Shown here one piece after another: positions 14,523 to 34,336 of a stretch of 64,000 nucleotides of DNA. This DNA is from a virus. Every line of letters begins with the position of its first letter. The first letter of the stretch is position 1. The position numbers and the translations under genes were made by a program. The DNA lies in IMG/VR virus record IMGVR_UViG_3300036857_000203, positions 1 to 64,000 of that record; one strand, written 5' to 3'. The notes below the pieces were generated by a model, which had not been told where the DNA came from, did no database searches, and worked only from the letters and a program-made list of their open reading frames with translations.

Positions 14523-14972
14523 CTAAGCAGTACGCTCACGCAGCATTGCCTCGATCTCATCACGCAGTTGCTTGCGCGTAATCCCTGGCATGATTTCTTC
14601 GATGATCACGTTGGTGATCTTCTCCGTCAGAAGGCGGAGCTGTTCGTCGCTGATTCGCGTCAGGCTCTTACCCTTGGCCTCGATCTTACGTGTGTGTGGA
14701 TCGTAGATCGCTTTGCTGTAGCCGACACGCACCTTGAACGCTTCCATGGCATGATCCTTGTCGAGAAATTCGTCCGAATTGTTTGCAACAAGATGAACGA
14801 GAGCCCAAAGATACCGTAGCAACTGGATGTTCTTCTCACGTCTGATGGTGGCAGTCACATCGCTGTCCATGGAGATGATATGCAGGTCCTCTTCCGCCAT
14901 TTCAGAGGACGGAAACAATCCGACCTCACCACGATAGTGGGCACGACGCTTTCGAAGAAAGGTTTCGATCAC
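14523..14972 (-). CDS. NinB/DUF1367-like recombination accessory protein
   Basis: GTG start after AGGAGG. RREKNIQLLRYLWAL..FKVRVGY..KSLTRISDEQ. Located downstream of the ERF gene. Confidence 0.6.
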   Translation of the reverse strand: MIETFLRKRRAHYRGEVGLFPSSEMAEEDLHIISMDSDVTATIRREKNIQLLRYLWALVHLVANNSDEFLDKDHAMEAFKVRVGYSKAIYDPHTRKIEAKGKSLTRISDEQLRLLTEKITNVIIEEIMPGITRKQLRDEIEAMLRERTA

Positions 14973-14987
14973 GTCGCGCCCCTCCTT

Positions 14988-15069
14988 GCCTGCCTCACCT
15001 CGCCGAGCCAAGCCACACCGAGGCCTGTCTTGCCGTGACGAGCCAAGCCGAGCCGAGCCGCGCCATGAA
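14988..15069 (-). ncRNA. Stand-alone GGC-NN guide unit B (14 pentamers plus GGCAGGC end)
   Basis: Intergenic minus-strand sequence AT GGC GC GGC TC GGC TC GGC TT GGC TC GTC AC GGC AA GAC AG GCC TC GGT GT GGC TT GGC TC GGC GA GGT GA GGCA GGC; same grammar as the main array. Confidence 0.8.
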
Positions 15070-15075
15070 CGGGCA

Positions 15076-16212
15076 TCATTGGGTGCTCGGCAACCCTCCG
15101 CCCGTATCCTCATCATCCGGCGGATTGAGCCGCATCTCGGTGCGCTGCCATTCCGCCATCAGCATGCTCCAGTCGCTCTCATCAAAGTCGTTCTCGCGTG
15201 GGGCGACATACTGGTTCCAGAACGCCTCGGCAGCTTCCATGCTTTGCAGCTGGGCGAGTTGATTGGCGACCCAGTTCAGCGCCTCGCCTGGGTCGCTCGG
15301 CATGTTGCCGCCGCCGACCTCCGACAGGTCATTGAGCCGGCGTCCAGTCGCGGCCTGAATCATGTCGTAGGTGCCGGGGAAGTTATCGCTGATGTTCTGC
15401 AAGATCGGCTCGTTGATCGCATCCCAGGCTCTCACCTCGTCCACCGACTGCGCCTTGCCGATGTAGCGGATGAAGGCGCTCGCCCACTCATCTGGGCCCT
15501 TGCCCTGGCCAAGCACGATGCGATGCGGCTTGCTGTCGTCTGGTGTTGTCTGCGCGGGCGCCGTCTCGGCTGGCCGCTGCGAGGGCCCCGGCACCGGAGC
15601 CTTCTCCTGACGCTGATTCGCGTCCTCGTCTACATCGGGGAAGTCACCGGCAGGCACCTGGAACAAGGCCAGCAGGAAGTATTTGCGCGCGTTGGTGTGG
15701 CACTTGGCGACCGCCTTCTCGTCCCAGTTGCCCTTGCGATCGCGCGAGATGCACACCCCTGTGAAGCGCGGCTTCTCGGGCCATACCTCGCCCGATGAGT
15801 GGAGGATGCTGAACTCGTAGGTGACCGCGAGCCGGTTGCCCTCCAGTATCTCCTTGGAGACCTCGTTCTGGATCACGGCCAGACCAGCGGCGCCCATCAG
15901 CGGCGTCACCGCATAGAGCACGTCCTCCATGCGGGCATAGTTGTAGCCGAAGTACTCGTTCCGGCCCCGCTTCTCGATGGTATCGACCTTGGACATGACG
16001 GCGGCGATGGCGCCGGCAATGTGCCCGACCGGTGAGCGAAAGAACGGCGTTTCGCTGCGCGGAGCCACCGGGCCACCGTTGGTCTTCTGCGGGAGGGCCT
16101 GCTGCTCGCGCACGGCAATGGCGCGCTGAGCAATACCGCCGCCGAGGCCGCCCGGGCTCGGCTCTTTAGGCGTTGGGCTTGGAACGAGGGGCCGGCGTGG
16201 GGTGGTGGTCAT
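15076..16212 (-). CDS. ERF-family single-strand annealing recombinase
   Basis: IEKRGRNEYFGYNYARMEDV..GLAVIQ..KAVAKCHTNARKYFLLALFQVPAGD. Confidence 0.85.
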   Translation of the reverse strand: MTTTPRRPLVPSPTPKEPSPGGLGGGIAQRAIAVREQQALPQKTNGGPVAPRSETPFFRSPVGHIAGAIAAVMSKVDTIEKRGRNEYFGYNYARMEDVLYAVTPLMGAAGLAVIQNEVSKEILEGNRLAVTYEFSILHSSGEVWPEKPRFTGVCISRDRKGNWDEKAVAKCHTNARKYFLLALFQVPAGDFPDVDEDANQRQEKAPVPGPSQRPAETAPAQTTPDDSKPHRIVLGQGKGPDEWASAFIRYIGKAQSVDEVRAWDAINEPILQNISDNFPGTYDMIQAATGRRLNDLSEVGGGNMPSDPGEALNWVANQLAQLQSMEAAEAFWNQYVAPRENDFDESDWSMLMAEWQRTEMRLNPPDDEDTGGGLPSTQ

Positions 16213-16565
16213 TGGTCATCCTTCCAATCGTCTTCCTGTTCCTTGATCCTGGCTTTCAGCGCATCAACCGCAGCCTTGTTCTCGAAATGCAGTTCTCGCA
16301 TAGAGACAGTGCACTCTGTCGTGTATTCGTTAGGTTCTTGGATGTGCAAGCCGTCCTCGTAGAAGTAGAACGCGGCGTTCTTCAGGTACGTCTCGATTGC
16401 CTCGTGGATGATCTTGCGAATGAGGGAGTGAAACAGCGATTCATCGACGTTGATGTCGATCGAGTAGCGATCTTTGTCGATCGATACTGCCTTCCACAGG
16501 TCTTCGGGCCATTCACCCAGCTCCCAGGCCGTCAGGTCAACCTTGATAAGTCGCTTCTTTGTCAC
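16209..16565 (-). CDS. Hypothetical protein
   Basis: Translationally coupled between neighbouring genes. Confidence 0.55.
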   Translation of the reverse strand: MTKKRLIKVDLTAWELGEWPEDLWKAVSIDKDRYSIDINVDESLFHSLIRKIIHEAIETYLKNAAFYFYEDGLHIQEPNEYTTECTVSMRELHFENKAAVDALKARIKEQEDDWKDDQ

Positions 16566-17467
16566 ACGGCCCTCGCGTCCTCGATTACGGTAACTCCTGG
16601 AACCTTGGCCCCCGCACGCACCGCCCTGTTGGCGAGCATCTGCACGGTGCCCCTCACGTCTTCGCTGTCCTCGAAGAACTTCAGACAGACCGCGTAATCA
16701 TCGATCCGCGCCTTCTTGGTCGACTTGAGCGTCTGGGCGCGGCCACGAGTACCAGCACGGGGACGAGGGGCATCAGCTGCAGCTGGCTCGCCCCTCGCCG
16801 CCGCTGCCTCGGCTTCCTGTTGTTGCGCCTCCGTCTGGCGCTGGAGCCAAGGCGTAGTGAGCCGGTACTTCAGGTTCTTGTAGACCTCGGCGGCAGTCTG
16901 GAGCGGCGACCACCGCGCTTGTATTCGCTTGAGTTCTTCGTCGTGGGGCTTGCGGTCGGCCTTGCGCTGCTCCTCGGCCTTCTTCCAGAGTTCCGCCAGA
17001 CGATCGGCGAGGTTGGCGATCCTGTTGGCTTCGTCCTGGTCCTGGATAGGTCCGCCCTTCAGGCGCTCCTCGGCCTCGCGCGCCAGGGGCTCGATTGCGT
17101 CCCGTAATCCTTCGAAGCTCTCATCGTCGGGCGGCTGGTTGTCGCCCATAGCGACCAGTTCGTGCTCGTCCGGCCACAGCCCACCGTTCTGAGCAACCTC
17201 ACGATAGGCCTGCTCGCTTACTGGGTGCTGACCGACCCGCGTCCAGAGTTCCAGGGCGCGCTGGGGCGTCACATCATCGTCGCCAATACGACAGTGCAGC
17301 TGACCGTTCTCGTTGGGCCAGTACGCGACAGGCCGGAACGTGCGCCGCGCGCCGTAGTGCTCCTTGCGCGGCTCCCGGTAGAACCCAGCCTGTGGGTGGC
17401 TCGGGCTCATCTGCACGGGCTTGCCGTTGAGCCGGTCGTGCCAGTACTGCCATTCCCATTCAGCCAT
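16562..17467 (-). CDS. Conserved phage recombination-region coiled-coil protein
   Basis: MAEWEWQYW..PQAGFYR..; coiled coil ..RKADRKPH..; C-terminal VPGVTVIE; GGAG RBS. Confidence 0.65.
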   Translation of the reverse strand: MAEWEWQYWHDRLNGKPVQMSPSHPQAGFYREPRKEHYGARRTFRPVAYWPNENGQLHCRIGDDDVTPQRALELWTRVGQHPVSEQAYREVAQNGGLWPDEHELVAMGDNQPPDDESFEGLRDAIEPLAREAEERLKGGPIQDQDEANRIANLADRLAELWKKAEEQRKADRKPHDEELKRIQARWSPLQTAAEVYKNLKYRLTTPWLQRQTEAQQQEAEAAAARGEPAAADAPRPRAGTRGRAQTLKSTKKARIDDYAVCLKFFEDSEDVRGTVQMLANRAVRAGAKVPGVTVIEDARAV

Positions 17468-17723
17468 TGCTCCTCCGCACGATGTTGCGCCAGACGCGCT
17501 CTTTGCCGAGTGCCCTCCCAGCGGCTTCAATAGTTGCGTTCTGCGGGCGCTTGGTGCCCTCGGGATTGAACCACGCCCTCATGCAGGCTTGGGATGGGCC
17601 GCCACCCTTCACGACTGATGACAGCTTGGTGTCACCCAGCATCTGCTGGATTTGGTAAATGACCGGGTCTTTGTCGCGGAACGTGTAGGCGCCGTAACCG
17701 TGTCCGTTCTTCTTTGCCATCAC
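17460..17723 (-). CDS. Small HTH-like regulator
   Basis: YTFRDKDPVI..SQACMRAWFNPEGTKRPQNATIEAAGRALG. Confidence 0.6.
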   Translation of the reverse strand: MMAKKNGHGYGAYTFRDKDPVIYQIQQMLGDTKLSSVVKGGGPSQACMRAWFNPEGTKRPQNATIEAAGRALGKERVWRNIVRRSNG

Positions 17724-18082
17724 GCACCTTTAGCCACTGTATAGGTGAAACTACCCGTCTTGCCCTTGCCCGCCTTGCGGCGAGTAAGGACCTTCGCCTT
17801 CAGGGCGCCGTGGAGCACGTTGGAGTAGCTCTTCTCGCTGAGCCCGTGCGTCACACAGAACTCGCGAATCGTGCTCGGCCCCTTCATCTCGGTAATCTTG
17901 TTCTCGCGCAGGTACTGCATCAGCATCCCAACGCGATCCTGCGCTTTCGCGCGCACCTTGCCGTTCTTGACCTGGGCATTGGCGACGGGCTGCGGTGGCT
18001 TCATCTCCAGGACATGCCCGGAGAGCGCCCAAAGCACGTAGGAAAGTTTCCGGTCGTCAACGAATATCTCGATCCTAAACAT
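17720..18082 (-). CDS. Basic hypothetical (winged-helix-like) protein
   Basis: GGAGG RBS; Lys-rich C-terminus. Confidence 0.55.
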   Translation of the reverse strand: MFRIEIFVDDRKLSYVLWALSGHVLEMKPPQPVANAQVKNGKVRAKAQDRVGMLMQYLRENKITEMKGPSTIREFCVTHGLSEKSYSNVLHGALKAKVLTRRKAGKGKTGSFTYTVAKGA

Positions 18083-18142
18083 TGGCTGGCCTCCGATAAC
18101 GACGACGGATGCGCTCGCGGTTGATCTCGTAGAGGTTCTTTC

Positions 18143-18478
18143 TCACTGCAGTGTCCTTCCATAGGGTTGGTGTGGAGAGATCGGCGGCGCCTGGGACTCC
18201 GCCAGGATGTGCTGGTGCATGCGCGTGAGGCATTCGTTGGCGATCTTGTCCAGCTCAGTCTCCATCTCCTTGCGCCACTTCTCGGTGATGCGCGGAGAGA
18301 TAAGCCACATGAAGGCGATGCCGGCGTGGATGCCAGAGCCGAATATCCAGACTAGCTGCGCGGGAGGCTCGTTGTAGCCATAGAGCCCAACCCCAGCGAA
18401 CGCGATGCACATCACCGCGCCGTACGTGATGGAGAAGCCCCTGCTCATCAGCACTTCAAGTGCGCGGTCTGGTTTCAC
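18143..18478 (-). CDS. Two-TM membrane protein
   Basis: Two hydrophobic segments. Confidence 0.5.
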   Translation of the reverse strand: MKPDRALEVLMSRGFSITYGAVMCIAFAGVGLYGYNEPPAQLVWIFGSGIHAGIAFMWLISPRITEKWRKEMETELDKIANECLTRMHQHILAESQAPPISPHQPYGRTLQ

Positions 18479-18601
18479 GTTTCACCTTTGGGAGCGTCAC
18501 CTTCACCTTCTTGGCGCGCTGCGTGTAGATCGCCTTGCGCACGCCCTTGGAGCCCGCGCCCGGCCACCGCTTGGTCTTGTTGAGCGATACCATCCTTGTC
18601 G

Positions 18602-19159
18602 TCATCGCTTCACCACTGTTCCATCCATCTTGCGCTTGAAGCGCTTGTCGAAACCGCGTGAGCGAAGTGTGCGGGCTGGACGAATGGCCACTGCTGAGAC
18701 GTCATCAGCTTTCCGGCACTGTCCGTCCAGCCCTATCCGCAGCTGCGAGACTGCGGAGTTCTTGACTTGTCTGGAGGCCGGACGAGGGGCTGCTGCGACG
18801 TGAGCACCATGTCCAGCATGCCGTTTAGACTCGCCCGACCCTGTCCGCAGCGTAGGTGCTTCCGCTGCGGCATTCATAAACGGTTCGTTCCACGCCCGGA
18901 TGCGTCGGCCCTTGTCGATGATCTTGCGATCTCGCTTTGTCTTCTCACGGTGGGCCTTGATCGGGAGCGGAGTCAAGTTCCAGAACCTGTCGGCATCCGG
19001 GTGGCCACTCTCGTGAAAGATGTTGTGATCAAAGTGGTAGAGCGAGATGATCTGGTCTTCCGTCATCTGCTTTGCGTCGTTATACGGAACACCACCCGGC
19101 AAGCGCAGCAGTGTTGCTGCAAGCTTCGTCTTCAAGCTGATGTGCTTGCGTTTAGCCAC
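18602..19159 (-). CDS. HNH-like endonuclease
   Basis: YHFDHNIFH..WNLTPL..HREKTKRD..FKRKMDGTVVKR. Confidence 0.65.
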   Translation of the reverse strand: MAKRKHISLKTKLAATLLRLPGGVPYNDAKQMTEDQIISLYHFDHNIFHESGHPDADRFWNLTPLPIKAHREKTKRDRKIIDKGRRIRAWNEPFMNAAAEAPTLRTGSGESKRHAGHGAHVAAAPRPASRQVKNSAVSQLRIGLDGQCRKADDVSAVAIRPARTLRSRGFDKRFKRKMDGTVVKR

Positions 19160-19183
19160 ACCCAGATATATACATTACATGCC

Positions 19184-19378: not shown

Positions 19379-19498
19379 TGATCCACATCGTGCTGCTGCA
19401 GGGCGTCCGGCCGGTCGAGGCCTGGACCGACAAGCTCTATGCCATGCGCCGGTCGCAGGAGCTTGGCGGTGGAAGTGTGATGACACTGGAGCTTCGCA

Positions 19499-20336: not shown

Positions 20337-20348
20337 ATTGGTAGTTCG

Positions 20349-21384: not shown

Positions 21385-21860
21385 ACTTCTGGGCGGACCT
21401 TCAGTACGAACCGGAAACCGGTAAGTTCTACCGGCTGAAGTCCGCTCGCAGCGTGAAGGCTGGAGATGAGGCTGGTTGCCTGAACCCCTCAACTCAGTAT
21501 TGGATCATCCGCGTCGGAGGGAGAAGTTATCGCCGTGGGCGATTGGCATGGCTTTATATGACCGGTCGCTGGCCGATCGCGCAGATTGATCACATCAATG
21601 GGGTAAAGACTGATGACCGGATCGAGAATCTCCGAGAGGCGACTAATTCACAGAACGCCTTAAACAAACGACGGACACGCCAGAACACATCAGGTTTCAA
21701 GGGCGTCACTTGGCATAAACGCACTCGCCGCTGGCATGCTCAGATCAACATCGGCGGCAAGAATAAGTACATCGGTAGTTTCCGGTCTCCCGAGGAGGCC
21801 CATGACGCTTATTGGCGGGCTGCGCAGGATGGTCACGGTGCGTTTGGGAGGAAAGAGTGA
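21381..21860 (+). CDS. HNH-AP2 homing endonuclease
   Basis: IDHINGVKTDDRIENLREAT..SGFKGVTW..WHAQI..YIGSF..EEAHDAY. Confidence 0.9.
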   Translation: MNFWADLQYEPETGKFYRLKSARSVKAGDEAGCLNPSTQYWIIRVGGRSYRRGRLAWLYMTGRWPIAQIDHINGVKTDDRIENLREATNSQNALNKRRTRQNTSGFKGVTWHKRTRRWHAQINIGGKNKYIGSFRSPEEAHDAYWRAAQDGHGAFGRKE

Positions 21861-23467
21861 AGGAACTCAGACCTTACCAAGAAGACGCCCTCCAGGCGAT
21901 CCGGCAGACGGTAGGCCAGGGGGTGAAACGTCTCGTGTGTCAATCACCTACTGGGTCAGGCAAGACGTTGCTCGCGGCAACGATCGTTGACGGCGCGCTG
22001 CGCAAGGGCAACCGGCTGTGTTTCACGGTGCCGGCGATCGACCTTGTCGATCAGACCGTGGAGATGTTCTACGCCCAGGGCATCAAGGACGTCGGCGTCA
22101 TCCAGGCTGACCACCGGATGACCAACTGGCAGATGCCAATCCAAGTCGCGAGCATCCAGACTATCCGCTCGCGCGGAATCTATCCCGAGGCCCAGGTCGT
22201 CGTCATTGACGAGTGCCACCAGTTGCACAAGGCGCACGTCAAGTGGTTGAGCGATCCTGACTGGCAAGCAGTGCCGTTCATCGGGCTCAGTGCAACTCCC
22301 TGGACGCGCGGCCTCGGGAAGCACTTCTCGTCCTTATTGGTGATGTCTACGACGAAAGAGCTGATCGAGGAGGGGTACTTATCCAGGTTCCGGGTGTTTG
22401 CGGCGGATCATCCTGATCTGAGCAATGTTCCGACCATGGGCAAGACCGGCGATTACAAGGAAGCGCCGCTGTCCACCGTGATGAGCCAGCAGCAGCTGAT
22501 GGCGAACGTGATCGAGACCTGGAGGGTGCGCCACAACGCTGACAAGACGCTGTGCTTCGCAGTTGATCGTGCGCACGCGAAGTCGCTGCAAGAGCGCTTC
22601 CTCGACGCTGGCATCTCATGCGCGTACCAGGACGCCAACACACCGAGCGCAGAGCGTGCAGAGATCAAGAGGAGATTCCATAGTGGAGATTATCGTGTGG
22701 TTTGCAGTGTCGGAACATTGTGCACGGGCGTCGACTGGGACGTCAGATGTCTCGTCTTGGCAAGGCCGACGAAGAGCGAAATGCTTTACGTGCAAATCAT
22801 TGGTCGAGGCTTACGAACGGCTGAGGGCAAGACTCACCTGCTTGTTCTCGATCACACGTCCACAACGGAGCGGCTCGGGCTGGTGACCGACGTTCACCAC
22901 GATAGCTTGTCGATGGGCAAGCTCGATGAGAATAAGGCTGCTCCGCGTAAGCCGCCGCTGCCTCGACCCTGTCCGCAGTGCAGCTGCCTGATGGCGGTCG
23001 GTGTACGAGTCTGCGAGGAGTGCGGCTTCGAGCGCAAGATCGTGTCGAAGGTCACCGAGAGAGACGGTCAGCTGGTGGAGTTCGATGGGACGTTTCGCAA
23101 GAAGGGCAAGACTGATCCCAAGTTGCTGCCGTATTCGTTCGCGGAGAAGATCAAATACTTTCAGCAGCTGCGCGGCTATGAGGTAATGCGTGGCTATCGG
23201 AAAGGTTGGGCCGCGAATCAATTCCGGGAGAAGTTCAATGAAGGCTGGCCCCCGTGGTCCTGGAACGATCTCGCACCAATGGCGCCCGGCCCCGAAGTCA
23301 CGTCCTGGATCAAATCCCGACTCATTGCATGGGCACAGAGTAAAGCTCGAACTGCTAGCGCTGCAGCTGGCACTCCACGGTCCGACAGCGGTAACACCCA
23401 GCGCAGTTCGTATTCTGGCGCGAAGCCCGCTGTGGCTGGAGACGAGACTACTCCTCCGTGGGAGTAA
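21857..23467 (+). CDS. Superfamily 2 (DExH) helicase with C-terminal zinc ribbon
   Basis: LRPYQ, SPTGSGKT, VIDECH, LSATP, GVDWD, QIIGRGLR, CPQC..CEECG. Confidence 0.92.
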   Translation: MKELRPYQEDALQAIRQTVGQGVKRLVCQSPTGSGKTLLAATIVDGALRKGNRLCFTVPAIDLVDQTVEMFYAQGIKDVGVIQADHRMTNWQMPIQVASIQTIRSRGIYPEAQVVVIDECHQLHKAHVKWLSDPDWQAVPFIGLSATPWTRGLGKHFSSLLVMSTTKELIEEGYLSRFRVFAADHPDLSNVPTMGKTGDYKEAPLSTVMSQQQLMANVIETWRVRHNADKTLCFAVDRAHAKSLQERFLDAGISCAYQDANTPSAERAEIKRRFHSGDYRVVCSVGTLCTGVDWDVRCLVLARPTKSEMLYVQIIGRGLRTAEGKTHLLVLDHTSTTERLGLVTDVHHDSLSMGKLDENKAAPRKPPLPRPCPQCSCLMAVGVRVCEECGFERKIVSKVTERDGQLVEFDGTFRKKGKTDPKLLPYSFAEKIKYFQQLRGYEVMRGYRKGWAANQFREKFNEGWPPWSWNDLAPMAPGPEVTSWIKSRLIAWAQSKARTASAAAGTPRSDSGNTQRSSYSGAKPAVAGDETTPPWE

Positions 23468-23593: not shown

Positions 23594-24152
23594 GCCTGCC
23601 AAGCCCGGCCAGGACTGAACGCACCAAGCCAAGCCCGGCCCTGCCTTGCCTCGCCTCGCCAAGCCCTAGCTAGCCGGGCCAGGACTGCCACGCCAAGCCA
23701 AGCCCTGTCAGGTCCTGGCGTGCCGTGCCTTGCCGTGCCGTGCCTGCCGGGCCAAGCCGTGCCTGTCCGAGGCCTGCCGCGTCTTGCCGGGCCTAGCCCT
23801 GCCGGGCCTGCCGCGACATGCCGCGTCTTGTCAGGTCGGGACATGCCGGGCCATACCGCGCCCGCCTTGCCTCAACTGCCGCGACATGCCGAGCCTGGAC
23901 CTGCCATGTCCAGCCGTCCGAGCCGGGCCAATGCCACGCCTGCCGAGCCAAGCCAGCGTCGGGCCAAGGCATGCCGTGACATGTCATCCACGTAGATGAC
24001 GTGCCTGCCATGCCCCGCCTTGCCGCGCACCGCCGGGCCGAGCCTCGCCGGGCCAAGCCCCGCCGCACCGGGCCTGCCGGGCCGCGCCATGCCGAGCCAC
24101 GTCCCACCGGGACGCGCCACGCCAAGCCGCGCCGAGCCTGCGTTACCGTGCC
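23594..24152 (-). ncRNA. GGC-NN pentamer array: eight 59-70 nt guide-like units plus a 19-nt remnant
   Basis: The minus strand reads GGC-NN with 5-nt period (minor GGT/GTC/GAC/GCC variants). Register is reset by a 4-nt GGCA step. Units: 24075-24138, 24006-24074, 23941-24005, 23877-23940, 23809-23876, 23745-23808, 23686-23744, 23616-23685. Starts about 8 nt after the stop codon of 24161-24691. Confidence 0.85.
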
Positions 24153-24160: not shown

Positions 24161-24691
24161 CTACCGTTGGGCCGCAGCCCTCGGTCTCTCCCCCGGCCGC
24201 CGACGCGGCGGCTGCGGGCGAGATGGCGGTTTCTTCTCGTCGTCTTTGCCAAGCTCATTCACGATGCTGTCGAGCCGGGCGTAGAACTCGCTTTCCAGTT
24301 TGGTTGTTCGCGCATGACCATGTGCATCGACCAGCAAGTTGCGGACTCGATCCATGAGCACTGCCAGGATGCGCGAGTTCTTCTCCTTCGTTGCACTCGC
24401 AACATCGACGTACGTGCCGACCGCCGACCTGGGATCGGGGTCGTGCCGATATCGCGGAAGCACGCGCGAGAGATCGATGTCGTTGATCTCGGGACGGGGA
24501 CAGCTACGGATGATCTCCTCGGCACGCGCCAAGAGATACCTTCGATGAACTCGCGCCGGGTCCCAATCGAACAACTTGTTCAACTCGCTGTTCTGATCCC
24601 TCCCCGCCTCCACGACATCGCGTGCGTTGATCGTGCCGTTACCGTCGCGCAGCTCATCGAGTGCGGTGATCTGCTCGGTCGTAAGATTCAT
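24161..24691 (-). CDS. Accessory protein of the RAMP-array locus (unknown function)
   Basis: Overlaps the RAMP stop codon by 4 nt. GTINARDVVEAGRDQNSELNKLFDWD..YLLARAEEIIR. Confidence 0.8.
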   Translation of the reverse strand: MNLTTEQITALDELRDGNGTINARDVVEAGRDQNSELNKLFDWDPARVHRRYLLARAEEIIRSCPRPEINDIDLSRVLPRYRHDPDPRSAVGTYVDVASATKEKNSRILAVLMDRVRNLLVDAHGHARTTKLESEFYARLDSIVNELGKDDEKKPPSRPQPPRRRPGERPRAAAQR

Positions 24692-25506
24692 GTGCTCGCT
24701 CCTGGTTGCTCGGGTTGATCGCTTGAACGAGAGCGCGTTACGGGATCGCGCCGCCGCATCACCTCAGCGTCGTACCAGCCCAGCAAGTCGGCGCTCTCTT
24801 CGTCAGCGAACGATGGATCATCGAGCGCTGCGAGCTGTGCCTCGCGCCCCTCTTTCTCGACAATGTCCATCCATTCGGGATGATCGTGGCTCACGACATC
24901 CCAGGAGCCGAAAGAGAATGCGCCGCGTTCCTGGCGCCCGTCGCCGACACCGACAATCATGCCGGCGTTCATCGCTAGATTGAGCACGTCGTCGAGCGTG
25001 ATCAGGTCGCGCACATAGCGAAAGCTCATGGAGCACGCCCAGCGCGGGAAGTAGGCGCGCGTGCGGATGTCGGGCGTCTTGGCGATGCCGGCCTGCCGCA
25101 CCATCGACATGTGCAGCTGCGGGATGCCGTACAGGAAGATCGTCGGCGTGGTTACGGTAATGAGCCGGCCCACTTCCGCTCGTGTTGCGCCCGGCGTGTC
25201 GACTGCCGCCTGGGCGAGCGCTTTCTTGATGCTGTTGCCGGGGAGGTGGACGGCGGCTGGCGCATCGGCGTCGCGGCAGCGATAGACCGAGGCGCGGAAC
25301 TCTTCGAGCGGATCGTGCTTGAGGGTGGCTGCGCGTGCTGCCCGGTTGGGAGCGCGTGGGGGGAGGAGTATCTGGCGCTTCGCCTTCTCGGTGAAGCGGT
25401 TCATCACGAGCGCGCTTGTGCCCAGGAGATGGAGAGTCGCGCCCACCATCTGCAATCGACTGATGAGCGGGCGCTCCGCACCAGTCTGCTTTGCCGCTTT
25501 CGCCAT
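24688..25506 (-). CDS. Cas7/Csm3-like RAMP-fold RNA-binding protein
   Basis: RAMP hallmarks: N-terminal strand ATLHLLGTSALVM, HLPGNSIKKAL (cf. IPGSSLKG of Csm3/Cmr RAMPs), a long insertion MVRQAGIAKTPDIRTR, and a C-terminal Gly-rich loop GMIVGVGDGRQERGAFSFGSW. Confidence 0.75.
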   Translation of the reverse strand: MAKAAKQTGAERPLISRLQMVGATLHLLGTSALVMNRFTEKAKRQILLPPRAPNRAARAATLKHDPLEEFRASVYRCRDADAPAAVHLPGNSIKKALAQAAVDTPGATRAEVGRLITVTTPTIFLYGIPQLHMSMVRQAGIAKTPDIRTRAYFPRWACSMSFRYVRDLITLDDVLNLAMNAGMIVGVGDGRQERGAFSFGSWDVVSHDHPEWMDIVEKEGREAQLAALDDPSFADEESADLLGWYDAEVMRRRDPVTRSRSSDQPEQPGAST

Positions 25507-25582
25507 ATTGAGGGTTCCTGTGATCGAGTGTATATAGAACAGGCGGATGCCTATCCAACGCAGACTATATCAGGAAACTACG

Positions 25583-25792
25583 ATGCACAAGCGGGAAGAG
25601 TCGGCGAACCTGAACGAGGGACTACGCGCCGCGATCGACGCTTGCGGTTCGCGCTATGCCCTGGCCAAGCGGCTCGGCCTGACACCGGTAGCAGTGCTTG
25701 ATTGGTGGCGCATCCCGGCGGACTTGGTGGTCGAGGTGGAGAGAGTATCGGGCGTGCCCCGCGAGAGGCTACGCCCGGAGCTGTACTACTAA
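25583..25792 (+). CDS. Cro/YdaS-like HTH regulator
   Basis: AIDACGSRYALAKRLGLTPVAVLDW..IP..VERVSGVPRERLRPELY; divergent from the RAMP gene. Confidence 0.85.
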   Translation: MHKREESANLNEGLRAAIDACGSRYALAKRLGLTPVAVLDWWRIPADLVVEVERVSGVPRERLRPELYY

Positions 25793-27487: not shown

Positions 27488-27495
27488 GGTCTCCT

Positions 27496-29525: not shown

Positions 29526-29526
29526 G

Positions 29527-29805: not shown

Positions 29806-30074
29806 ACGGGCTCCTTCTGCCAGATGCCCTGGGCAATGCAGGCAATCTGAAGCTCGCGTTCAAACGCCTTCACGACACGCTTGAAGGTGGCCTTCGTCGG
29901 GTCGCAATGGCGGGTGCGGCTCCAGGTGCCGCTGCTTACGCTGTATTCCCATTGGCTCCATTCCCAGGCGGGATGCGCGGCTACGCGGGTGCGCTTCACC
30001 CGATATTGCTGATCGCCCACGACAATGTCGTAGCGCTCGGTGACGTTTCTCCAATCAATGGCTGGCTTGGTCAT
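29802..30074 (-). CDS. Hypothetical protein
   Basis: CATGAAAGG RBS. Confidence 0.55.
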   Translation of the reverse strand: MTKPAIDWRNVTERYDIVVGDQQYRVKRTRVAAHPAWEWSQWEYSVSSGTWSRTRHCDPTKATFKRVVKAFERELQIACIAQGIWQKEPV

Positions 30075-30272
30075 GTTTCAGTTCCTTTCATGGGTTCACG
30101 GCGGATAATTTCGGCGCGCTGGCACTCCCAGCCGCGTTCGTCCGCGACAGCGCCGGCCACTGCCAGGGCGGTGGCATCGTCAGTGGCGTTCACGGTGAGG
30201 CTCTGAGGATCGAAGACATCCAGCGAGCCCTCGGGGCGGACGTGGACGAGGAGGAGATAGCGGGTCATGGGT

Positions 30273-30617
30273 TTAGTGGTCATGGTGCCAAGTCACTTTG
30301 CCGCCATGACCAACGTGGGCGTGCATGCCGGCGTGGGTGTTGGGAGCGCGACCCGCTAAGGCCTGAGCTTGACGAACGAGTTCAATGAACATTGGCGACC
30401 CGGTCTTGGCCAAGATTCTGAACGAGCACGCATCCGACACGCCGTCCTTGCTCGTGTCCTCCCAGCCGGCGAAGGCGGGCGCGCCGGTTGCGGGATCGAT
30501 CACGAGGCGGATGCGCCCAGCAGCGAGCCCCTGGGCGAGGCGGGTGACCGCCTCGCGTACTTCCTTGGCGCGCTCCTGGATGGTCTGGCGCGGACGCAGT
30601 TTCGTGTCGCATGCCAT
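30273..30617 (-). CDS. Small partner of the AAA module
   Basis: MACDTKLRPRQT..FAGW..DGVSDAC; GAGG RBS. Confidence 0.65.
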   Translation of the reverse strand: MACDTKLRPRQTIQERAKEVREAVTRLAQGLAAGRIRLVIDPATGAPAFAGWEDTSKDGVSDACSFRILAKTGSPMFIELVRQAQALAGRAPNTHAGMHAHVGHGGKVTWHHDH

Positions 30618-30627
30618 AGTGCCCTCC

Positions 30628-31410
30628 TCACAGGTCCAGCTGGCGCGGCGTAGCGCTGTAGCCCTCGAAGGGCAGATCATCGTCCAGGTCCACGCCCCGG
30701 CCCTCGCCCTCGCTTGCCTCGACCGGGGCGGCGTCGTCCAGGTCCAGGAACGAGATGCGGGCTTCCTCCAGGCGCTGGATGGCGACGTTGTCCACCTCAA
30801 CGGCAGCGCCCTCGCCGGCCTTGACGATGTCGCGGGCAACCTTCCTGGCCACCTCGATGGCCTTGCTCACGCGCTCGCTGGCGTTGGGTTCCAGCATCTT
30901 GCCCAGGGTGCGGGCTTCGTTGGCGGCCTTGCGGATGGCCTGGGGATCGAGGTTCTTGACGCCATCGCGCATGGCGTCGACGAAGTCGCGCACCTGTTCG
31001 TTGATGGCGCGCACCGCCTCTACGTCATCGGCACTCACGCGGCCGATCATCACAGTGACGCCCACGTAGGTCCAGGTCGCGGTGGCGTTGAAGTCCTCGG
31101 CAAGCTGGCGCGCCTCGCGCACCGCCTGACGAAGCCTCTCCTCGCGCTCGGTCGGGCACATCAGGCCGAAGTCGCCGGCCTTGACGCAAGCCGACTGAAT
31201 CTTGGAGCGGGCAGCGGAGCGGACCTTGGAGGCGCGAGCTTGCTCGGCGGGGTCCTTGGTGGTGCGCTCGGTTTCCCAACGGGCGCGGCCCTCACCCTCG
31301 GCAGTGATATGATCCTGCTCAAGCTCCAGGGTCTTGTACTTGACGTTGCCCTTGACGGTGGTGCGGGCGCGCACCAGCAGGCCGGGGCGGAGGGTTGCGA
31401 TATCAGACAT
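30628..31410 (-). CDS. DUF3150-like partner of the Ycf46-type ATPase
   Basis: Helical protein ending in R.LDL motifs, like the ATPase; adjacent to it. Confidence 0.6.
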   Translation of the reverse strand: MSDIATLRPGLLVRARTTVKGNVKYKTLELEQDHITAEGEGRARWETERTTKDPAEQARASKVRSAARSKIQSACVKAGDFGLMCPTEREERLRQAVREARQLAEDFNATATWTYVGVTVMIGRVSADDVEAVRAINEQVRDFVDAMRDGVKNLDPQAIRKAANEARTLGKMLEPNASERVSKAIEVARKVARDIVKAGEGAAVEVDNVAIQRLEEARISFLDLDDAAPVEASEGEGRGVDLDDDLPFEGYSATPRQLDL

Positions 31411-31452
31411 CGTGGGTTCCTTTCACCGGGTTGGAGTAACCCGTGCCACGTG

Positions 31453-31481
31453 TATATGTCACCGTGGCACGGTCTTGTCAA
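31453..31481 (-). promoter_or_regulatory. Sigma70-like promoter with palindromic operator
   Basis: TTGACA-17 nt-CATATA; TGTCACCGTGGCA at 31457-31469. Confidence 0.7.
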
Positions 31482-31487
31482 TACATG

Positions 31488-33110
31488 TCATGCTAAGTCT
31501 AGCGCACGCTCGGTAGAGAACGCCGGACGCTCGGCGTCGGGGGTGGTGGCGAGACGAGCGCGCTTGCTCCAGGTGCGCAGGCGCTTGACTTGGTCGGCCA
31601 TGCTGTCCACCAGCGGCACGACCTTGCTGGCGGCGTTGAGGATGTCGGTGGCTGCGAGCGCACGCTGACCATCGGTGAAGCTCGCGAACAACGCCTCCTG
31701 CACGAGGTTGGCGACCTCTGCCGCCGTGAAGGTGTCGGTGGCTTTGACGATGGCCGCCGTGTCCTCGGTGCTGAACGGCTGGCGCTTGAACTTGGCCAGG
31801 GTGACGTTGAGCACTTCGGCGCGCTCGCGCGCAGTCGGAACGTCCAGGAACCACATCTCATCCCAGCGCCCCTTGCGGAGAAGCTCGACGGGGAGCCGGT
31901 CAGGGTCATTGGCCGTTGCCAGGATGAAGGCCTCGGACTTGCGGTCATTCATCCAGCTGAGCAACACCGCGAGTTTGTCTGCGGCCACGCCGCCGTCACC
32001 GGCAGGACCCGCGCCACCGGAGAGGGTCTTGTCCACCTCATCGAGCCAGAGCACGCACGGCCCCAGGGCATCGACGGTGTCGAGCATGGCGCGGATATTC
32101 TGCTCGCTCTCGCCCAAGAACTTGCTGCCGGTCGCGCCCAGGTCGCCTTGGACGAGCGGGCATAGCCATGACGTGGCGAGGGCTTGGGCAGTGAAAGTCT
32201 TGCCGCTGCCGGGAATGCCCACGAGCAAGCAGCCCTTGGGGCGCTGGATGCCGTAGGCACGAGCCTCGGGGCTCCAGGCGAGCTTGCGCTGGACAAGCCA
32301 GGGCTTCAGGGCATCGAGCCCGCCCACCGCGTCCAAGCCGCCAGGGAGCGGCTCAACCCAGCGCAGCATGCCGTTGGAGGCGATGATGCGCTTCTTCTCC
32401 TCACTGATCACCGCTGGCTCGATGGCGCGGCTTTGCACGATGCTCTTGGCGAAGCAGCCTTCGGCCTGCGGGCCGGTGAGGCCGACAGCGGCGTCCACGA
32501 TGGCTTCGCGCTTGCCGTTGAGCGGCTGCACCTTGCCAGGGTTCTGCCGGATGGCAGTGGCAATGGCCACATCGGCCATGCGGCCAAGCTCTTCACGGTC
32601 GGGCAATGGCCACTCCACCGTGACGGCGTCGTTGGCAACATCACTCGGAACCTTGGCCCCAGGCGCAAGCACGATGACGCTGGTGCCGGTGGCGGGCAGG
32701 GTGCGGGAGAGATTGCGCAGCCAGCGGGTGACGGTGACACCCGGGCCGCCATCGCACCACTTGTGCAGATCGCGGAGAATCCAGACCTCCTTGCCGCCGT
32801 CACGGGAACGCTCGCTGATCTTCTTGAGCAGGCTCACCGCATCGATGGGGGCGTTTGCCCCACCCTGGAGGGCGGCTGCGATGGGGTCGGTGGAGGCATC
32901 GTTGCCCATGCCGGCGACGGGATTGCCGCCCACATCGGTGGCACCCTCGGCGCAATCCCAGAAGAACGGCATGTAGCCCGCGCTCTTGGCGGCTTCGATC
33001 AGGCATAACTCGATCCGCCTCTCCTCGCGGGAGTTGACCCAGAGCACGCCGTTGCGTGCCTTGATCAGTGATGCGACATCAGCGCCCTGGACTTGAGACT
33101 TGGTCGGCAT
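31488..33110 (-). CDS. Ycf46/SpoVK-like AAA+ ATPase
   Basis: Degenerate N-terminal AAA domain (WVNSREERR, ILRDLH), VGGLDALKPW, GIPGSGKT, WLDEVDK, ATAND..ELLRKGRWDE. Confidence 0.9.
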   Translation of the reverse strand: MPTKSQVQGADVASLIKARNGVLWVNSREERRIELCLIEAAKSAGYMPFFWDCAEGATDVGGNPVAGMGNDASTDPIAAALQGGANAPIDAVSLLKKISERSRDGGKEVWILRDLHKWCDGGPGVTVTRWLRNLSRTLPATGTSVIVLAPGAKVPSDVANDAVTVEWPLPDREELGRMADVAIATAIRQNPGKVQPLNGKREAIVDAAVGLTGPQAEGCFAKSIVQSRAIEPAVISEEKKRIIASNGMLRWVEPLPGGLDAVGGLDALKPWLVQRKLAWSPEARAYGIQRPKGCLLVGIPGSGKTFTAQALATSWLCPLVQGDLGATGSKFLGESEQNIRAMLDTVDALGPCVLWLDEVDKTLSGGAGPAGDGGVAADKLAVLLSWMNDRKSEAFILATANDPDRLPVELLRKGRWDEMWFLDVPTARERAEVLNVTLAKFKRQPFSTEDTAAIVKATDTFTAAEVANLVQEALFASFTDGQRALAATDILNAASKVVPLVDSMADQVKRLRTWSKRARLATTPDAERPAFSTERALDLA

Positions 33111-33144
33111 AGGAGGATTACCTTTCATGGGTTACGGGAATACG

Positions 33145-33173
33145 TATATGCCACGGTGGCATCCTGGTTTCAA
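33145..33173 (-). promoter_or_regulatory. Sigma70-like promoter with palindromic operator
   Basis: TTGAAA-17 nt-CATATA; TGCCACGGTGGCA at 33149-33161. Confidence 0.65.
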
Positions 33174-33312
33174 GCCCCACGGCGAAAGATTACATTGATC
33201 ACAGCGAGCGCGGCTATTACGACGACAACGGTGCCTGCTGTGGTCTGTAAGCTGTAGCCGTTCCAAAGCGTAATTGCCGCCACAATAATCACGGTTGCCC
33301 AGTTATCGCTGG

Positions 33313-33516
33313 TCATGACGCGCACCCCTCGCACACGACTTGGACGTGGCGCACGCTCGCCTTGGGAAACTTGGCCTGAAGCTCGGCCCGCACGAGGTGG
33401 GCTGGGGCATCGGCGTGGAACGGCAGCGGATAGGTGCCGGCGGGATAGGCGCCGCCCTCGGGGAAGGTGGCGGTCCAGCAATGGCCTGGGCGGTTGGGCT
33501 TGATGACGATGGTCAT
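33313..33516 (-). CDS. Hypothetical protein
   Basis: CATGAAAGG RBS; YPLPF motif. Confidence 0.5.
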   Translation of the reverse strand: MTIVIKPNRPGHCWTATFPEGGAYPAGTYPLPFHADAPAHLVRAELQAKFPKASVRHVQVVCEGCAS

Positions 33517-33544
33517 TGTCAGGTTCCTTTCATGCGTGTATAGC
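33516..33544 (+). promoter_or_regulatory. Putative promoter for guide unit C
   Basis: TTGTCA-17 nt-TATAGC; predicted start about 33550, immediately before the first GGC. Confidence 0.55.
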
Positions 33545-33551
33545 GGTTGAT

Positions 33552-33640
33552 GGCAAGGCAAGGCGCGGCAGGGCACGGCCCGGCGATACAGGGCTGGGCC
33601 CGGCACGGCGCGCCTCGGGGGGGGGTCATGCCCCCTCCCC
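33552..33640 (+). ncRNA. Stand-alone GGC-NN guide unit C (13 pentamers) followed by a G/C hairpin
   Basis: GGC AA GGC AA GGC GC GGC AG GGC AC GGC CC GGC GA TAC AG GGC TG GGC CC GGC AC GGC GC GCC TC, then G9-TCATG-CCCCCTCCCC. Confidence 0.8.
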
Positions 33641-34336
33641 AATATCGAGCTTGTCTTCACCCCAGGGCAGGCCATAGCGGACGGCGCAGGCCTTGCCGTA
33701 GCCTACTGCGAGGCTCTTCTTGGCGGTGGGGCTGTCGCCGCCCAGGGCAAGGTTGCAGAACACGCAGCGGCCGGTGAGCGTGGCGCTCTCCTTGGCGACC
33801 TTGGCCGGCTCGCAGGCGAACTCACGCAGGCGCTTGGCGATGGCCTCGGTGCGACCGTTGGCAACGCGCGCCGGCTGATACTGCCCATCGACCGTTACGC
33901 GGCCCAGCCACACGCGGCGCGGGCCCCAGTCGCCTTCCTCGAAGACGTCATTGTCCTTCACATCGATGCTGCCGGGGACCTTCGCCTTGGCGCTGGCGAT
34001 CGAGAGGCGAACGACGGTGTCGGCCTCGGGGACGGCCAGGGTGATGGCGGGCTTCTTGAGGCTGACCTTGGCGCGGTCGAACAACTGCAACACGCCGCCC
34101 AGGTCGCCAACGGCTTGAATGGCCTGCGCGGGCTTGGCCTGGGGCGCTAGCGACCAGACCTGATCGCCGTAGCGGTTCTTGCCCTGGTAGGTACCCAGGG
34201 TGACTTCCTGGGTGCGGCCGTCGCGCTTGTAGACGATGACGGTGCCACCGGGCTCGGCGTTGGCGGCCTTGTCCTCGGGGATGCGAACGCCCCAGGTGGT
34301 GGCGTCGAGCTTCACGTAGGAGGTCGGGAAAGACAT
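33626..34336 (-). CDS. DUF6011-like Zn-finger early protein
   Basis: C-terminal GRCVFCNLAL..SLAVGYGKACA..LPWG; start MSFPTSY after CATGAAAGG. Confidence 0.75.
   Translation of the reverse strand: MSFPTSYVKLDATTWGVRIPEDKAANAEPGGTVIVYKRDGRTQEVTLGTYQGKNRYGDQVWSLAPQAKPAQAIQAVGDLGGVLQLFDRAKVSLKKPAITLAVPEADTVVRLSIASAKAKVPGSIDVKDNDVFEEGDWGPRRVWLGRVTVDGQYQPARVANGRTEAIAKRLREFACEPAKVAKESATLTGRCVFCNLALGGDSPTAKKSLAVGYGKACAVRYGLPWGEDKLDIGEGA

What the first reader, a model, noticed from the sequence alone, without database searches (positions are those of the whole stretch)
14745..34117. Guides sit next to resistant alleles of their target genes, as free-standing homing endonucleases do
All four guides with an in-window match lie about 0.2-1.1 kb from that match: B and the NinB-like gene, unit 8 and the helicase, unit 1 and the RAMP, C and the DUF6011-like gene. 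The local allele always carries several mismatches. Established: free-standing phage homing endonucleases target the rival allele of a neighbouring gene and spread with the resistant allele. Inference: these guides act in the same allele-drive or exclusion manner during co-infection, or are generated locally from nearby sequence by an unknown acquisition route.
Basis: inference. Interest (0 to 1): 0.85.

Follow-up and report, generated by a model that had tools for sequence, protein, structure and literature searches.

The report
Phage VIPR guides beside resistant alleles
This phage carries a recently described CRISPR-like silencing system (VIPR), and several of its guide-RNA genes lie right beside the phage's own altered copy of the gene they are aimed at in rival phages, so weapon and immunity appear to be inherited together.

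Summary
Observation confirmed. The 'guides' are vrRNAs of a VIPR system, described in 2026 preprints. Parts: Vipr RAMP 24688-25506, partner 24161-24691, staggered GGC-NN array 23595-24152, solo units 14992-15064 and 33552-33616.

Under the published 1-nt-skip rule, the genome-wide best hit of 4 of 10 units lies 0.2-1.1 kb away in a neighbouring gene, in wobble phase. 0 of 1000 shuffled sets reach 4.

Own alleles match 68-83%. Relatives match better for 3 of 4 guides:
- ninB: 24/24 over 12 dinucleotides in two guide-less contigs.
- DUF6011: up to 23/26.
- vipr: predicted 23/24, from protein only.
- helicase: unresolved.

A second phage (L211) has a different guide in the same place, aimed at another ninB motif (24/26 elsewhere, 17/26 own). 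Among 484 units of other contigs, strong self near-matches are enriched within 1.3 kb (11/17 vs 117/405). ninB and DUF6011 change ancestry at the footprint.

No nuclease was found, so homing is unproven. Tests for accelerated escape, and for wobble phase in other contigs, were not significant.

The linked layout is absent from the VIPR text I could read; supplements were closed. This scan noted the same layout before in other genomes.

The parts
24688..25506 (-). vipr gene (272-aa RAMP / Cas7-like protein)
   Evidence: A profile of 46 homologues hits PDB 36pp_D 'SUSP1 Vipr protein' at E 9.1e-07. The AlphaFold model has pLDDT 85.7. The top Foldseek matches are Csm3/Cas7-type RAMPs, E 5e-05. It matches PHROG 4652, of unknown function.
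24161..24691 (-). vipr-accessory (vap-like) gene, 176 aa, function unknown
   Evidence: tblastn relatives lie directly downstream of vipr in 35 of 81 related loci. No Pfam family for the window's protein. The model has pLDDT 88.7. No Foldseek match at E<=0.001. Only weak winged-helix-like and helical-hairpin rows, Z about 5-6.
23595..24152 (-). staggered vrRNA array: units of 11-14 GGC-NN pentamers separated by a 4-nt GGCA step
   Evidence: Register by dynamic programming. Period-5 tandem repeats. Pattern matches. The form fits the 'staggered arrays with 1-nt overlap' in the legend of fig. S18 of 10.64898/2026.04.26.720920.
24079..24138 (-). unit 1 (guide aimed at vipr genes)
   Evidence: NN series. 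Best genome hit is 20/24 in own vipr.
25175..25209 (-). own vipr site near-cognate to unit 1 (codons AAVDTPGATRAE)
   Evidence: 20/24, with the skipped base at the wobble position. Relatives P0003 and P0011 read AAIDTPGATKAE, which is 11/12 residue classes against 9/12 for the own allele.
23616..23685 (-). unit 8 (guide with near-match in the helicase gene)
   Evidence: NN series. Best genome hit is 19/28.
23126..23166 (+). own helicase site near-cognate to unit 8 (LPYSFAEKIKYFQQ)
   Evidence: 19/28, in codon phase, including Ser TCG against guide AG. No better-matching relative found.
21812..23467 (+). helicase gene (551 aa)
   Evidence: Pfam ResIII, Helicase_C and DEAD. PHROG 16 DNA helicase, E 2.9e-81.
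14992..15064 (-). solo guide B, inserted between erf and ninB on the coding strand of both
   Evidence: Sequence and register. Relatives without a guide have no spacer upstream of ninB.
14523..14972 (-). NinB/Orf-like gene (149 aa, GTG start at 14972)
   Evidence: PHROG 319 NinB/Orf recombination mediator, E 1.6e-06. 35 homologues besides the window's own protein.
14749..14789 (-). own ninB site near-cognate to guide B (VANNSDEFLDKDHA)
   Evidence: Own allele 19/28. L203 and L204 score 25/28, with the first 12 dinucleotides perfect (24/24).
14748..14972 (-). guide-proximal 5' part of ninB, of different ancestry from the rest of the gene
   Evidence: Identity to L204 is 160/225 here against 191/222 in the rest of the gene, Fisher p 8.6e-05. 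The best change point is at nt 210, inside the footprint. Relatives compared with each other show no such drop.
33552..33616 (+). solo guide C, in the spacer after the DUF6011 gene, antisense to the flanking genes
   Evidence: Sequence and pattern match. No consensus promoter or terminator by the scan.
33626..34336 (-). DUF6011-family gene (236 aa as called in the protein collection; the ORF is open up to 34663)
   Evidence: Homologues carry PF19474. The window's own protein did not reach Pfam's threshold.
34080..34117 (-). own DUF6011 site near-cognate to guide C (QAVGDLGGVLQLF)
   Evidence: Own allele 19/26. L277 scores 23/26, and L266 and L267 score 22/26.
34118..34162 (-). recombination junction in the DUF6011 gene, just upstream of the footprint
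   Evidence: Informative residues on the N-side are own=P0160 at 23 against own=P0158 at 6. From the footprint onward they are 9 against 38, Fisher p 2.7e-07. Best change points fall at residues 59-71.

Best explanation
The locus is a VIPR system: a Vipr RAMP protein plus an accessory protein, with guide RNAs made of GGC-NN pentamers.

Established for other VIPR systems in the 2026 preprints:
- Vipr polymerises on the RNA and holds each GGY triplet.
- It presents the NN pairs to double-stranded DNA, skipping every third base.
- Binding silences transcription.

Shown here by computation:
- Four guides of this phage spell conserved motifs of gene families that the phage itself carries: vipr, ninB, DUF6011 and probably the helicase.
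- Each guide lies 0.2-1.1 kb from the phage's own copy of that gene.
- The own copy has 4-9 mismatched bases at codon positions 1-2.
- Relatives carry copies that match much better, up to a perfect 12-dinucleotide match.

Inferred:
- During co-infection, or on meeting a prophage, the guides silence the rival's allele while the resident allele escapes.
- Guide and escaping allele are kept side by side because recombination between mosaic phages would otherwise place a guide in a genome with a sensitive allele.
- The changes of ancestry at the footprint in ninB and DUF6011 suggest that the guide and the adjoining gene segment move together as a cassette.

Whether the own alleles really escape is not tested, and U1 at 83% match is the doubtful case.
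For: Family membership:
- The profile hits SUSP1 Vipr in PDB at E 9.1e-07.
- The fold matches Csm3/Cas7 RAMPs.
- GGC-NN arrays are present.
- A conserved partner gene follows vipr.
- Only the 1-nt skip gives the neighbouring hits.

Position and phase:
- 4 of 10 units have their best genome-wide hit within 1150 nt; 0 of 1000 shuffled sets reach 4.
- 4 of 4 hits are in wobble phase.

Rivals match better than self:
- Guide B: 52 of 63 ninB loci score above the own 19/28, and 25 of 63 reach >=23/28. L203 and L204 are perfect over 12 dinucleotides. At protein level, 30 of 35 homologues beat the own allele.
- Guide C: 10 of 80 DUF6011 loci score above the own 19/26, the best at 23/26. 30 of 82 homologues beat the own allele at protein level.
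- U1: 6 of 120 Vipr homologues beat the own allele, and they include the closest relatives.

Guide-less targets:
- 60 of 63 ninB loci and 80 of 80 DUF6011 loci have no unit in the DNA fetched.
- Guide-less relatives have no spacer upstream of ninB.

Independent recurrence:
- L211 has another guide directly upstream of its ninB, aimed at a different motif. It scores 24/26 in L221 and L241, and 17/26 in its own gene.

General trend in 484 units of other contigs:
- Self near-matches with z>=3 lie within 1300 nt in 11 of 17 cases, against 117 of 405 for z<1, Fisher p 0.003.
- No two of the loci with strong hits share sequence.

Cassette signature:
- ninB, p 8.6e-05.
- DUF6011, p 2.7e-07.
Against: - U8/helicase: none of 150 representatives (at most 55% identical) fits the guide better than the own allele (own 9/14, best 7/14). 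An exact scan for 9 of its dinucleotides found nothing.
- U1 matches the own vipr at 20/24 (83%), above the 80% limit the preprint used to call targets, so self-binding is possible. Only 2 of 81 viral vipr genes score higher at DNA level. Exact scans for its predicted target found nothing.
- There is no significant excess of own-lineage change inside the footprints: ninB 6/28 vs 35/268, p 0.17; conserved columns 2/12 vs 5/71, p 0.27; Vipr 1/8 vs 7/89.
- In other contigs the strong self near-matches are not significantly enriched in wobble phase (17/34 against a 41% control rate, p 0.2). Several may therefore be noise.
- Most guides (about 93%) have no notable self near-match at all.
- Vipr shows no mosaic signal.
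- Junctions at conserved motifs could arise because both recombination and guides favour conserved sequence.
- Expression of B and C is not shown, and the scan found no consensus promoter.
Confidence: 0.6

Rival explanations
1. Local origin. Each guide was made from the neighbouring gene of an ancestor by an unknown copying route, which explains the short distance. The resident gene then changed, or was replaced by recombination, which ended self-silencing. The match to relatives then reflects the ancestral sequence, not aiming at rivals.
For: - The guide is closer to the family consensus than to the own allele, as an ancestral copy would be.
- The diverged or replaced gene segment includes the footprint and adjoins the guide in ninB.
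- No route of guide acquisition is given in the VIPR text I read.
Against: - No machinery that turns NNx codons into NN-GGC pentamers is known, and none was seen in the locus.
- Guide B fits a 65%-identical homologue best at protein level (13/14). It is perfect over 12 dinucleotides in an 80%-identical relative, which fits an allele still circulating.
- In L211 a different guide at the same place hits alleles of distant ninB lineages.
- This reading does not exclude the main one. It concerns origin, not present function.
Confidence: 0.2
2. Self-regulation. The near-cognate guides bind the phage's own genes weakly and tune their expression, for example as feedback on vipr by unit 1. Proximity would then reflect operon logic.
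For: - U1 matches the own vipr at 83%, above the preprint's 80% limit.
- B lies in the same operon, directly upstream of ninB.
- VIPR is a transcriptional silencer.
Against: - If self-regulation were selected, the guide should fit the own allele best. Instead 52 of 63 ninB loci and 10 of 80 DUF6011 loci fit better.
- The closest Vipr relatives also fit U1 better.
- The own matches of B (68%) and C (73%) are below the published limit.
Confidence: 0.1
3. Chance together with a shared liking for conserved motifs. The matches are the best of very many positions, and their closeness is accidental.
For: - Taken singly, the scores of U8, B and C are reached by 6-22% of shuffled guides.
- The wobble-phase test in other contigs is not significant.
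Against: - 0 of 1000 shuffled sets place 4 of 10 top hits within 1150 nt.
- All four hits are in codon phase, and the mismatches are largely conservative replacements, including a Ser TCN/AGY switch.
- Homologues elsewhere fit up to 24/24.
- The layout is repeated in L211.
Confidence: 0.02

Closest known systems
VIPR systems (Vipr RAMP + vap + GGY/NN vrRNA), bioRxiv 10.64898/2026.04.26.720920; structure paper 10.64898/2026.04.26.720927
   Same: - A RAMP protein related to SUSP1 Vipr.
- A two-gene operon with a flanking pentamer array.
- The 1-nt skip rule with the skip at the wobble base.
- Targets in other phages, including other vipr genes.
- The array form fits the 'staggered arrays' of that paper.
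   Different: - The protein is 272 aa and only distantly similar to SUSP1 Vipr: one 49-residue stretch at E 9e-07.
- No 3' tail or pseudoknot was evident.
- The type (I-VII) was not determined.
- That paper reports no self hits at >=80% NN match. Here U1 has 83% to the own vipr.
- The paper's text does not mention guides lying beside the own homologue of the target. The words 'allele' and 'homing' are absent. Its supplements could not be read.
Solo (orphan) vrRNAs of VIPR-null SUSP1-like phages and F5 satellites, bioRxiv 10.64898/2026.10.15.759431
   Same: - Stand-alone guide genes away from vipr.
- Some are aimed at rivals' vipr genes and vrRNAs.
- Self-match scores are lower than scores to other phages, read there as avoidance of autoimmunity (section 8).
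- Targets are wobble-aligned.
   Different: - There the solo guides sit at the former VIPR locus, or in satellites, and aim at vipr, vrRNAs, satellites or host REP decoys.
- Here the solo guides are scattered in a VIPR-positive phage. Each lies next to an ordinary phage gene (ninB, DUF6011) whose foreign alleles it spells, and the gene changes ancestry at the footprint.
Free-standing homing endonucleases of T4-like phages (SegB: PMC2330249, abstract seen in the search listing; SegF and SegG recalled from memory)
   Same: - An intergenic insert that recognises the neighbouring gene as rivals carry it.
- The carrier's own copy differs at the site.
- Flanking sequence of the carrier seems to travel with the insert, like a co-conversion tract from the site to the insert.
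   Different: - No nuclease gene. Recognition is by RNA, not protein.
- The known output of this kind of VIPR is silencing, not cleavage.
- Copying into the rival genome is not shown.
- The effector protein is encoded 9-10 kb away from guides B and C.

Membership tests
VIPR system | Vipr protein: a minimal RAMP (RRM core, G-loop, thumb) related to known Vipr | tested here: met
   The profile of 46 homologues hits PDB 36pp_D 'SUSP1 Vipr protein' at E 9.1e-07, over profile positions 150-198. The model has pLDDT 85.7. The best Foldseek rows are all Csm3/Cmr/Cas7 RAMPs, E 5e-05 to 1e-03.
VIPR system | vrRNAs of 9-16 tandem GGY-NN pentamers next to vipr | tested here: met
   The array at 23595-24152 has units of 11-14 pentamers. 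There are 29 pattern matches against 0.01 expected.
VIPR system | Accessory (vap) gene in an operon with vipr | tested here: met
   The 176-aa gene overlaps the vipr stop. Relatives lie directly downstream of vipr in 35 of 81 loci. Which vap class it belongs to was not determined.
VIPR system | Targets follow the 1-nt skip rule, with the skip mostly at the codon wobble position | tested here: met
   Only skip 1 yields the neighbouring hits. All are in wobble phase. External targets reach 24/24 (B, over 12 dinucleotides) and 23/26 (C).
VIPR system | vrRNA is expressed, binds Vipr, and the complex binds dsDNA and silences | not testable with these tools
   No RNA data were examined. The consensus scans found no promoter at B or C, which decides nothing.
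Free-standing homing endonuclease | Encodes a site-specific DNA endonuclease | tested here: inconclusive
   No nuclease family was found for Vipr or the partner in Pfam. One of 17 partner homologues had a sub-threshold PD-(D/E)XK hit at E 0.0058. No nuclease appears among the fold matches. A missing match does not prove absence.
Free-standing homing endonuclease | Recognises the rival allele of a nearby gene while the carrier's allele is resistant | tested here: inconclusive
   The sequence relation holds for ninB, DUF6011 and vipr. Resistance of the own alleles is inferred from 68-83% match and was not tested.
Free-standing homing endonuclease | Spreads by gene conversion, with co-conversion of flanking markers | tested here: inconclusive
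   The ancestry change at the footprint, with the guide-proximal segment distinct, is seen in ninB and DUF6011 but not in vipr. This is compatible with conversion tracts and also with ordinary recombination at conserved motifs.

The most novel reading that the evidence does not exclude
VIPR guides act as RNA-guided homing-like cassettes. Binding of the Vipr-guide filament to a rival's allele (an R-loop/triplex) not only silences it. It also provokes recombination there, perhaps through stalled forks and the phage's own Erf/exonuclease/NinB module. The stretch from the target site to the guide is then copied into the rival, carrying the resistant allele along. This would explain three things: why guides lie within about 1 kb of the own homologue, why ninB and DUF6011 change ancestry at the footprint, and how guides spread without any Cas1-like machinery.
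Probability: 0.15. Interest if true: 0.9.

Novelty: new variant of a known kind. Interest (0 to 1): 0.63.

Why it matters
VIPR was described only in 2026. The text I could read does not say how guides arise, spread or avoid self-targeting, apart from noting lower self-match scores.

A rule that guides sit beside an escaping copy of the gene family they attack would have several consequences:
- It would make VIPR guides poison-antidote cassettes.
- It would predict targets from genomic context alone, which helps for the many guides without database hits.
- It would explain mosaic junctions in ordinary phage genes.
- It would give a concrete, testable route for guide spread.

It also warns that an 80% match cut-off hides biologically meaningful near-self matches.

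Tried and rejected
- **Tandem-repeat protein, TRAP-like RNA-binding sites, G-quadruplex.** I considered these before the literature search and dropped them once the gapped code and the RAMP were verified.
- **Close relatives.**
  - Megablast of 14000-35000 against INPHARED gave no match.
  - tblastn of Vipr gave only 6 distant records, 5 Gordonia phages and 1 cyanophage.
  - Single-protein search for related loci gave 2 loci for Vipr and none for ninB or DUF6011.
- **Accelerated escape in footprints.** Not significant.
- **Wobble phase of self near-matches in other contigs.** Not significant.
- **Proximity by the 5% rank measure in the second set of loci.** Weak: 3/16, p 0.054. The 1300-nt measure is clearer.
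- **Helicase.** No better allele among 150 representatives.
- **Exact pattern scans for predicted targets.** All gave 0 hits: U8 in viral contigs, U1 in viral and genome contigs, B in genome contigs.
- **Mosaic test.** No signal for vipr.
- **Promoter and terminator scans at B, C and the array.** Nothing useful.
- **Partner protein.** No clear fold match. Foldseek gave nothing at E<=0.001 and VIA-align gave Z below 6.
- **Not done.** Complex prediction, sequencing-run search and read laying were not used.
- **Closed material.** Supplements of the three VIPR preprints were closed. Data S3 and Supplementary Tables 14-18 of the October preprint (self-targeting scores, guide placement) may already hold related observations.

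Full report
**What is there.** The window is the first 64,000 nt of a 72,435-nt IMG/VR virus record rated 100% complete. The region 14-35 kb holds phage early genes:
- Erf, 15076-16212.
- An exonuclease, 16562-17530.
- A NinB/Orf-like gene.
- A superfamily-2 helicase, 21812-23467.
- A Cro-like regulator, 25547-25792.
- An AAA ATPase, 31488-33128.

Three non-coding tracts have a strict 5-nt period with a constant GGC and a variable dinucleotide:
- 23595-24152, minus strand.
- 14992-15064, minus strand.
- 33552-33616, plus strand.

They are supported. The pentamer pattern gives 29 matches with up to 2 mismatches, all in these three places, against 0.01 expected. The large tract is cut into units of 11-14 pentamers by a 4-nt GGCA step. 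No further tract lies in the last 8.4 kb of the genome.

- I read each unit as NNxNNx and scanned both strands.
- The gaps from unit to site are 1037, 450, 203 and 464 nt.
- All four hits have the skipped base on codon position 3 of the gene hit.
- The mismatches are largely conservative replacements: V/I and R/K in vipr, S/T and L/V in ninB. In the helicase, Ser is written TCG in the gene and AG in the guide.
- Over the whole genome, no set of 1000 shuffled guide sets placed 4 of 10 top hits within 1150 nt; the maximum was 3, in 8 sets.
- Skips of 0, 2 or 3 bases gave 1 close hit in 30.
- Singly, only U1's score is beyond all 200 shuffles. U8, B and C are reached by 6%, 22% and 8% of shuffles.

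**What it is.** A literature search found three 2026 bioRxiv preprints on VIPR systems.
- Of 10.64898/2026.04.26.720920 I read the Results, the Discussion, the methods section on natural targets, and passages.
- Of 10.64898/2026.10.15.759431 I read the abstract, sections 8 and 26, and passages.
- Of 10.64898/2026.04.26.720927 I read the abstract and passages.

They describe:
- A phage-borne RAMP protein (Vipr), an accessory gene (vap), and vrRNAs of 9-16 GGY-NN pentamers.
- Recognition of dsDNA with a 1-nt skip that mostly falls on the wobble base.
- Transcriptional silencing, with targets in rival phages, satellites and other VIPR systems.
- Staggered arrays, and solo vrRNAs.

The 272-aa protein at 24688-25506 belongs to this family. 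A profile of 46 homologues hits the PDB chain 'SUSP1 Vipr protein' at E 9.1e-07. Its model (pLDDT 85.7) matches Csm3/Cas7 RAMPs.

The 176-aa partner is conserved downstream of vipr in 35 of 81 related loci. It has no recognisable family or clear fold match, and no nuclease signature.

The system is common:
- More than 120 viral contigs hold seven GGC-NN pentamers in a row, with G+C from 0.37 to 0.76.
- At least 448 viral stretches encode relatives of this Vipr.

**Do relatives carry the better-matching allele?** For three of four guides, yes.

*Guide B (ninB)*
- The guide decodes to S S [DE] [KN] T [DE] L [FL] V [DE] [KN] [DE] [DE] A.
- The own allele reads VANNSDEFLDKDHA (7/14 classes). The family consensus is VADNTDLFLDKDDA.
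- 30 of 35 homologues fit better than the own allele, up to 13/14.
- At DNA level, 52 of 63 metagenomic ninB loci exceed the own 19/28, and 25 reach at least 23/28.
- L203 and L204 are perfect over the first 12 dinucleotides, 24/24 against 18/24 for the own allele.

*Guide C (DUF6011)*
- The own allele scores 19/26. L277 scores 23/26, and L266 and L267 score 22/26.
- 10 of 80 loci score above the own allele.
- At protein level, 30 of 82 homologues fit better.

*U1 (vipr)*
- The own allele AAVDTPGATRAE fits 9/12 classes.
- The closer relatives P0003, P0011 (AAIDTPGATKAE) and P0002 fit 11/12.
- 6 of the 120 listed homologues beat the own allele.
- By the genetic code, P0003 and P0011 would give 23/24 at DNA level.
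- Among 81 viral vipr genes the best are 21/24, in 2 genes.

*U8 (helicase)*
- Unresolved.

**Are the targets guide-less?** 60 of 63 ninB loci and 80 of 80 DUF6011 loci show no pentamer unit in the DNA fetched. In guide-less relatives, ninB abuts the upstream gene with no spacer. These loci are fragments, so a VIPR system elsewhere in those genomes is not excluded.

**Does the layout recur?**

*L211, an independent case*
- In contig L211, an unrelated guide lies directly upstream of that phage's ninB.
- It decodes to [IM]G[DE]VGLFPT[KN]P[IM]A, a different conserved ninB motif.
- It scores 24/26 in L221 and L241, 23/26 in four others, and 17/26 in its own gene.

*All-against-all scan*
- I scanned 505 units against 2.2 Mb of fetched loci.
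- 8 units had a clear external target.
- For 4 of those 8 (G000-B, G000-U1, L140, L211), the own locus's best hit falls in the guide's own copy of the targeted gene, 97-1224 nt away.

*Self-scans of 484 units from other contigs*
- Units with a strong self near-match (z>=3) have it within 1300 nt in 11 of 17 cases. Units with z<1 do so in 117 of 405, Fisher p 0.003.
- For loci of at least 8 kb the figures are 8/13 against 39/241, p 0.0005.
- The loci with strong hits share no sequence with each other or with this genome.

*Limits*
- Most guides have no notable self match.
- The wobble-phase check on these other hits is not significant (17/34 against 41%).
- The rank-based proximity test is weak in the second set.

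*ninB*
- The 5' 225 nt, from the start next to guide B through the footprint, are 71% identical to L204. The remaining 222 nt are 86% identical, Fisher p 8.6e-05.
- The best change point is at nt 210, inside the footprint.
- The own allele shows this drop against all six relatives tested, while relatives compared with each other do not.

*DUF6011*
- Residues 1-73 side with P0160/P0161 (23 informative residues against 6).
- Residues 74-236, from the footprint to the end next to guide C, side with P0158/P0159 (38 against 9), p 2.7e-07.
- The best change points fall at residues 59-71.

*vipr*
- No such signal.

Guide and adjoining gene segment therefore look like a unit in two of four cases. Because both guides and recombination favour conserved motifs, coincidence of junction and footprint is not proof.

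**Mechanism, with what is shown and what is inferred.**
- Shown by others: Vipr-vrRNA binds dsDNA by the gapped code and silences.
- Shown here: family membership, the code, the positions, the better fit of foreign alleles, and the mosaics.
- Inferred: the guides silence rivals' ninB, DUF6011 and vipr. The own alleles escape. Tight linkage is kept because recombinants that separate guide and escaping allele would silence themselves.
- Not shown: escape itself. U1 at 83% is above the preprint's 80% limit, and that preprint reported no self hits at that limit. Also not shown are expression of B and C, and any copying into rivals.
- I found no significant excess of own-lineage substitutions inside the footprints.

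**Known or new.** The system, the code, solo guides, guides against rivals' vipr, and lower self-match scores are all in the preprints. I did not find the following in the text I read:
- Guides scattered through a VIPR-positive genome.
- Each guide lying beside the phage's own mismatched copy of an ordinary gene family that it targets.
- The change of ancestry at the footprint.

The words 'allele' and 'homing' occur in neither paper. Supplements were closed and may hold more.

This scan's notes report the same layout in several other genomes. Those are unchecked notes and I did not use them as evidence.

**Verdict.** The finding is a new organisational feature of a known system.

Noticed in passing
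window 23945-24005: The third array unit is degenerate and holds an inverted repeat (a hairpin around 23975-24003) in place of regular pentamers. It may be a processing or termination element, or a decayed unit.
   Followed up: no
window 23609-23619 and 23678-23688: The distal end of the array has two copies, 69 nt apart, of an 11-nt word followed by similar pentamers. The last units therefore look like a recent duplication.
   Followed up: no
window 14523-15116 and 33313-33675: The longest ORFs here run through guides B and C. The likely true starts are a GTG at 14972 and an ATG at 33516, each preceded by a ribosome-binding site, so the guides are intergenic. The 3' end of guide B overlaps the ribosome-binding site of ninB.
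   Followed up: partly
window 33617-33640: Guide C is followed by a run of nine G and a C-rich complement, a possible hairpin without a T tract. The terminator scan did not call it.
   Followed up: partly
L209:634-838 and 1954-2281: A ninB relative has uninterrupted pentamer runs of 28-41 repeats directly upstream of ninB. This is much longer than the usual 9-16. The structure preprint mentions vrRNAs of up to 30 repeats.
   Followed up: no
L019, L025, L049, L084: GGC-NN arrays also occur in viral contigs of only 37-40% G+C, so the motif is not a by-product of high G+C.
   Followed up: no
window 24010-24074 (unit 2) and units 3-7: These units have no match above shuffles in the phage's own genome or in the 2.2 Mb of fetched loci. 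Their targets remain unknown.
   Followed up: partly
window 25175-25209: Unit 1 matches the phage's own vipr gene at 20/24 (83%). This would count as a self-target under the 80% limit used in the first VIPR preprint, which reported none.
   Followed up: partly
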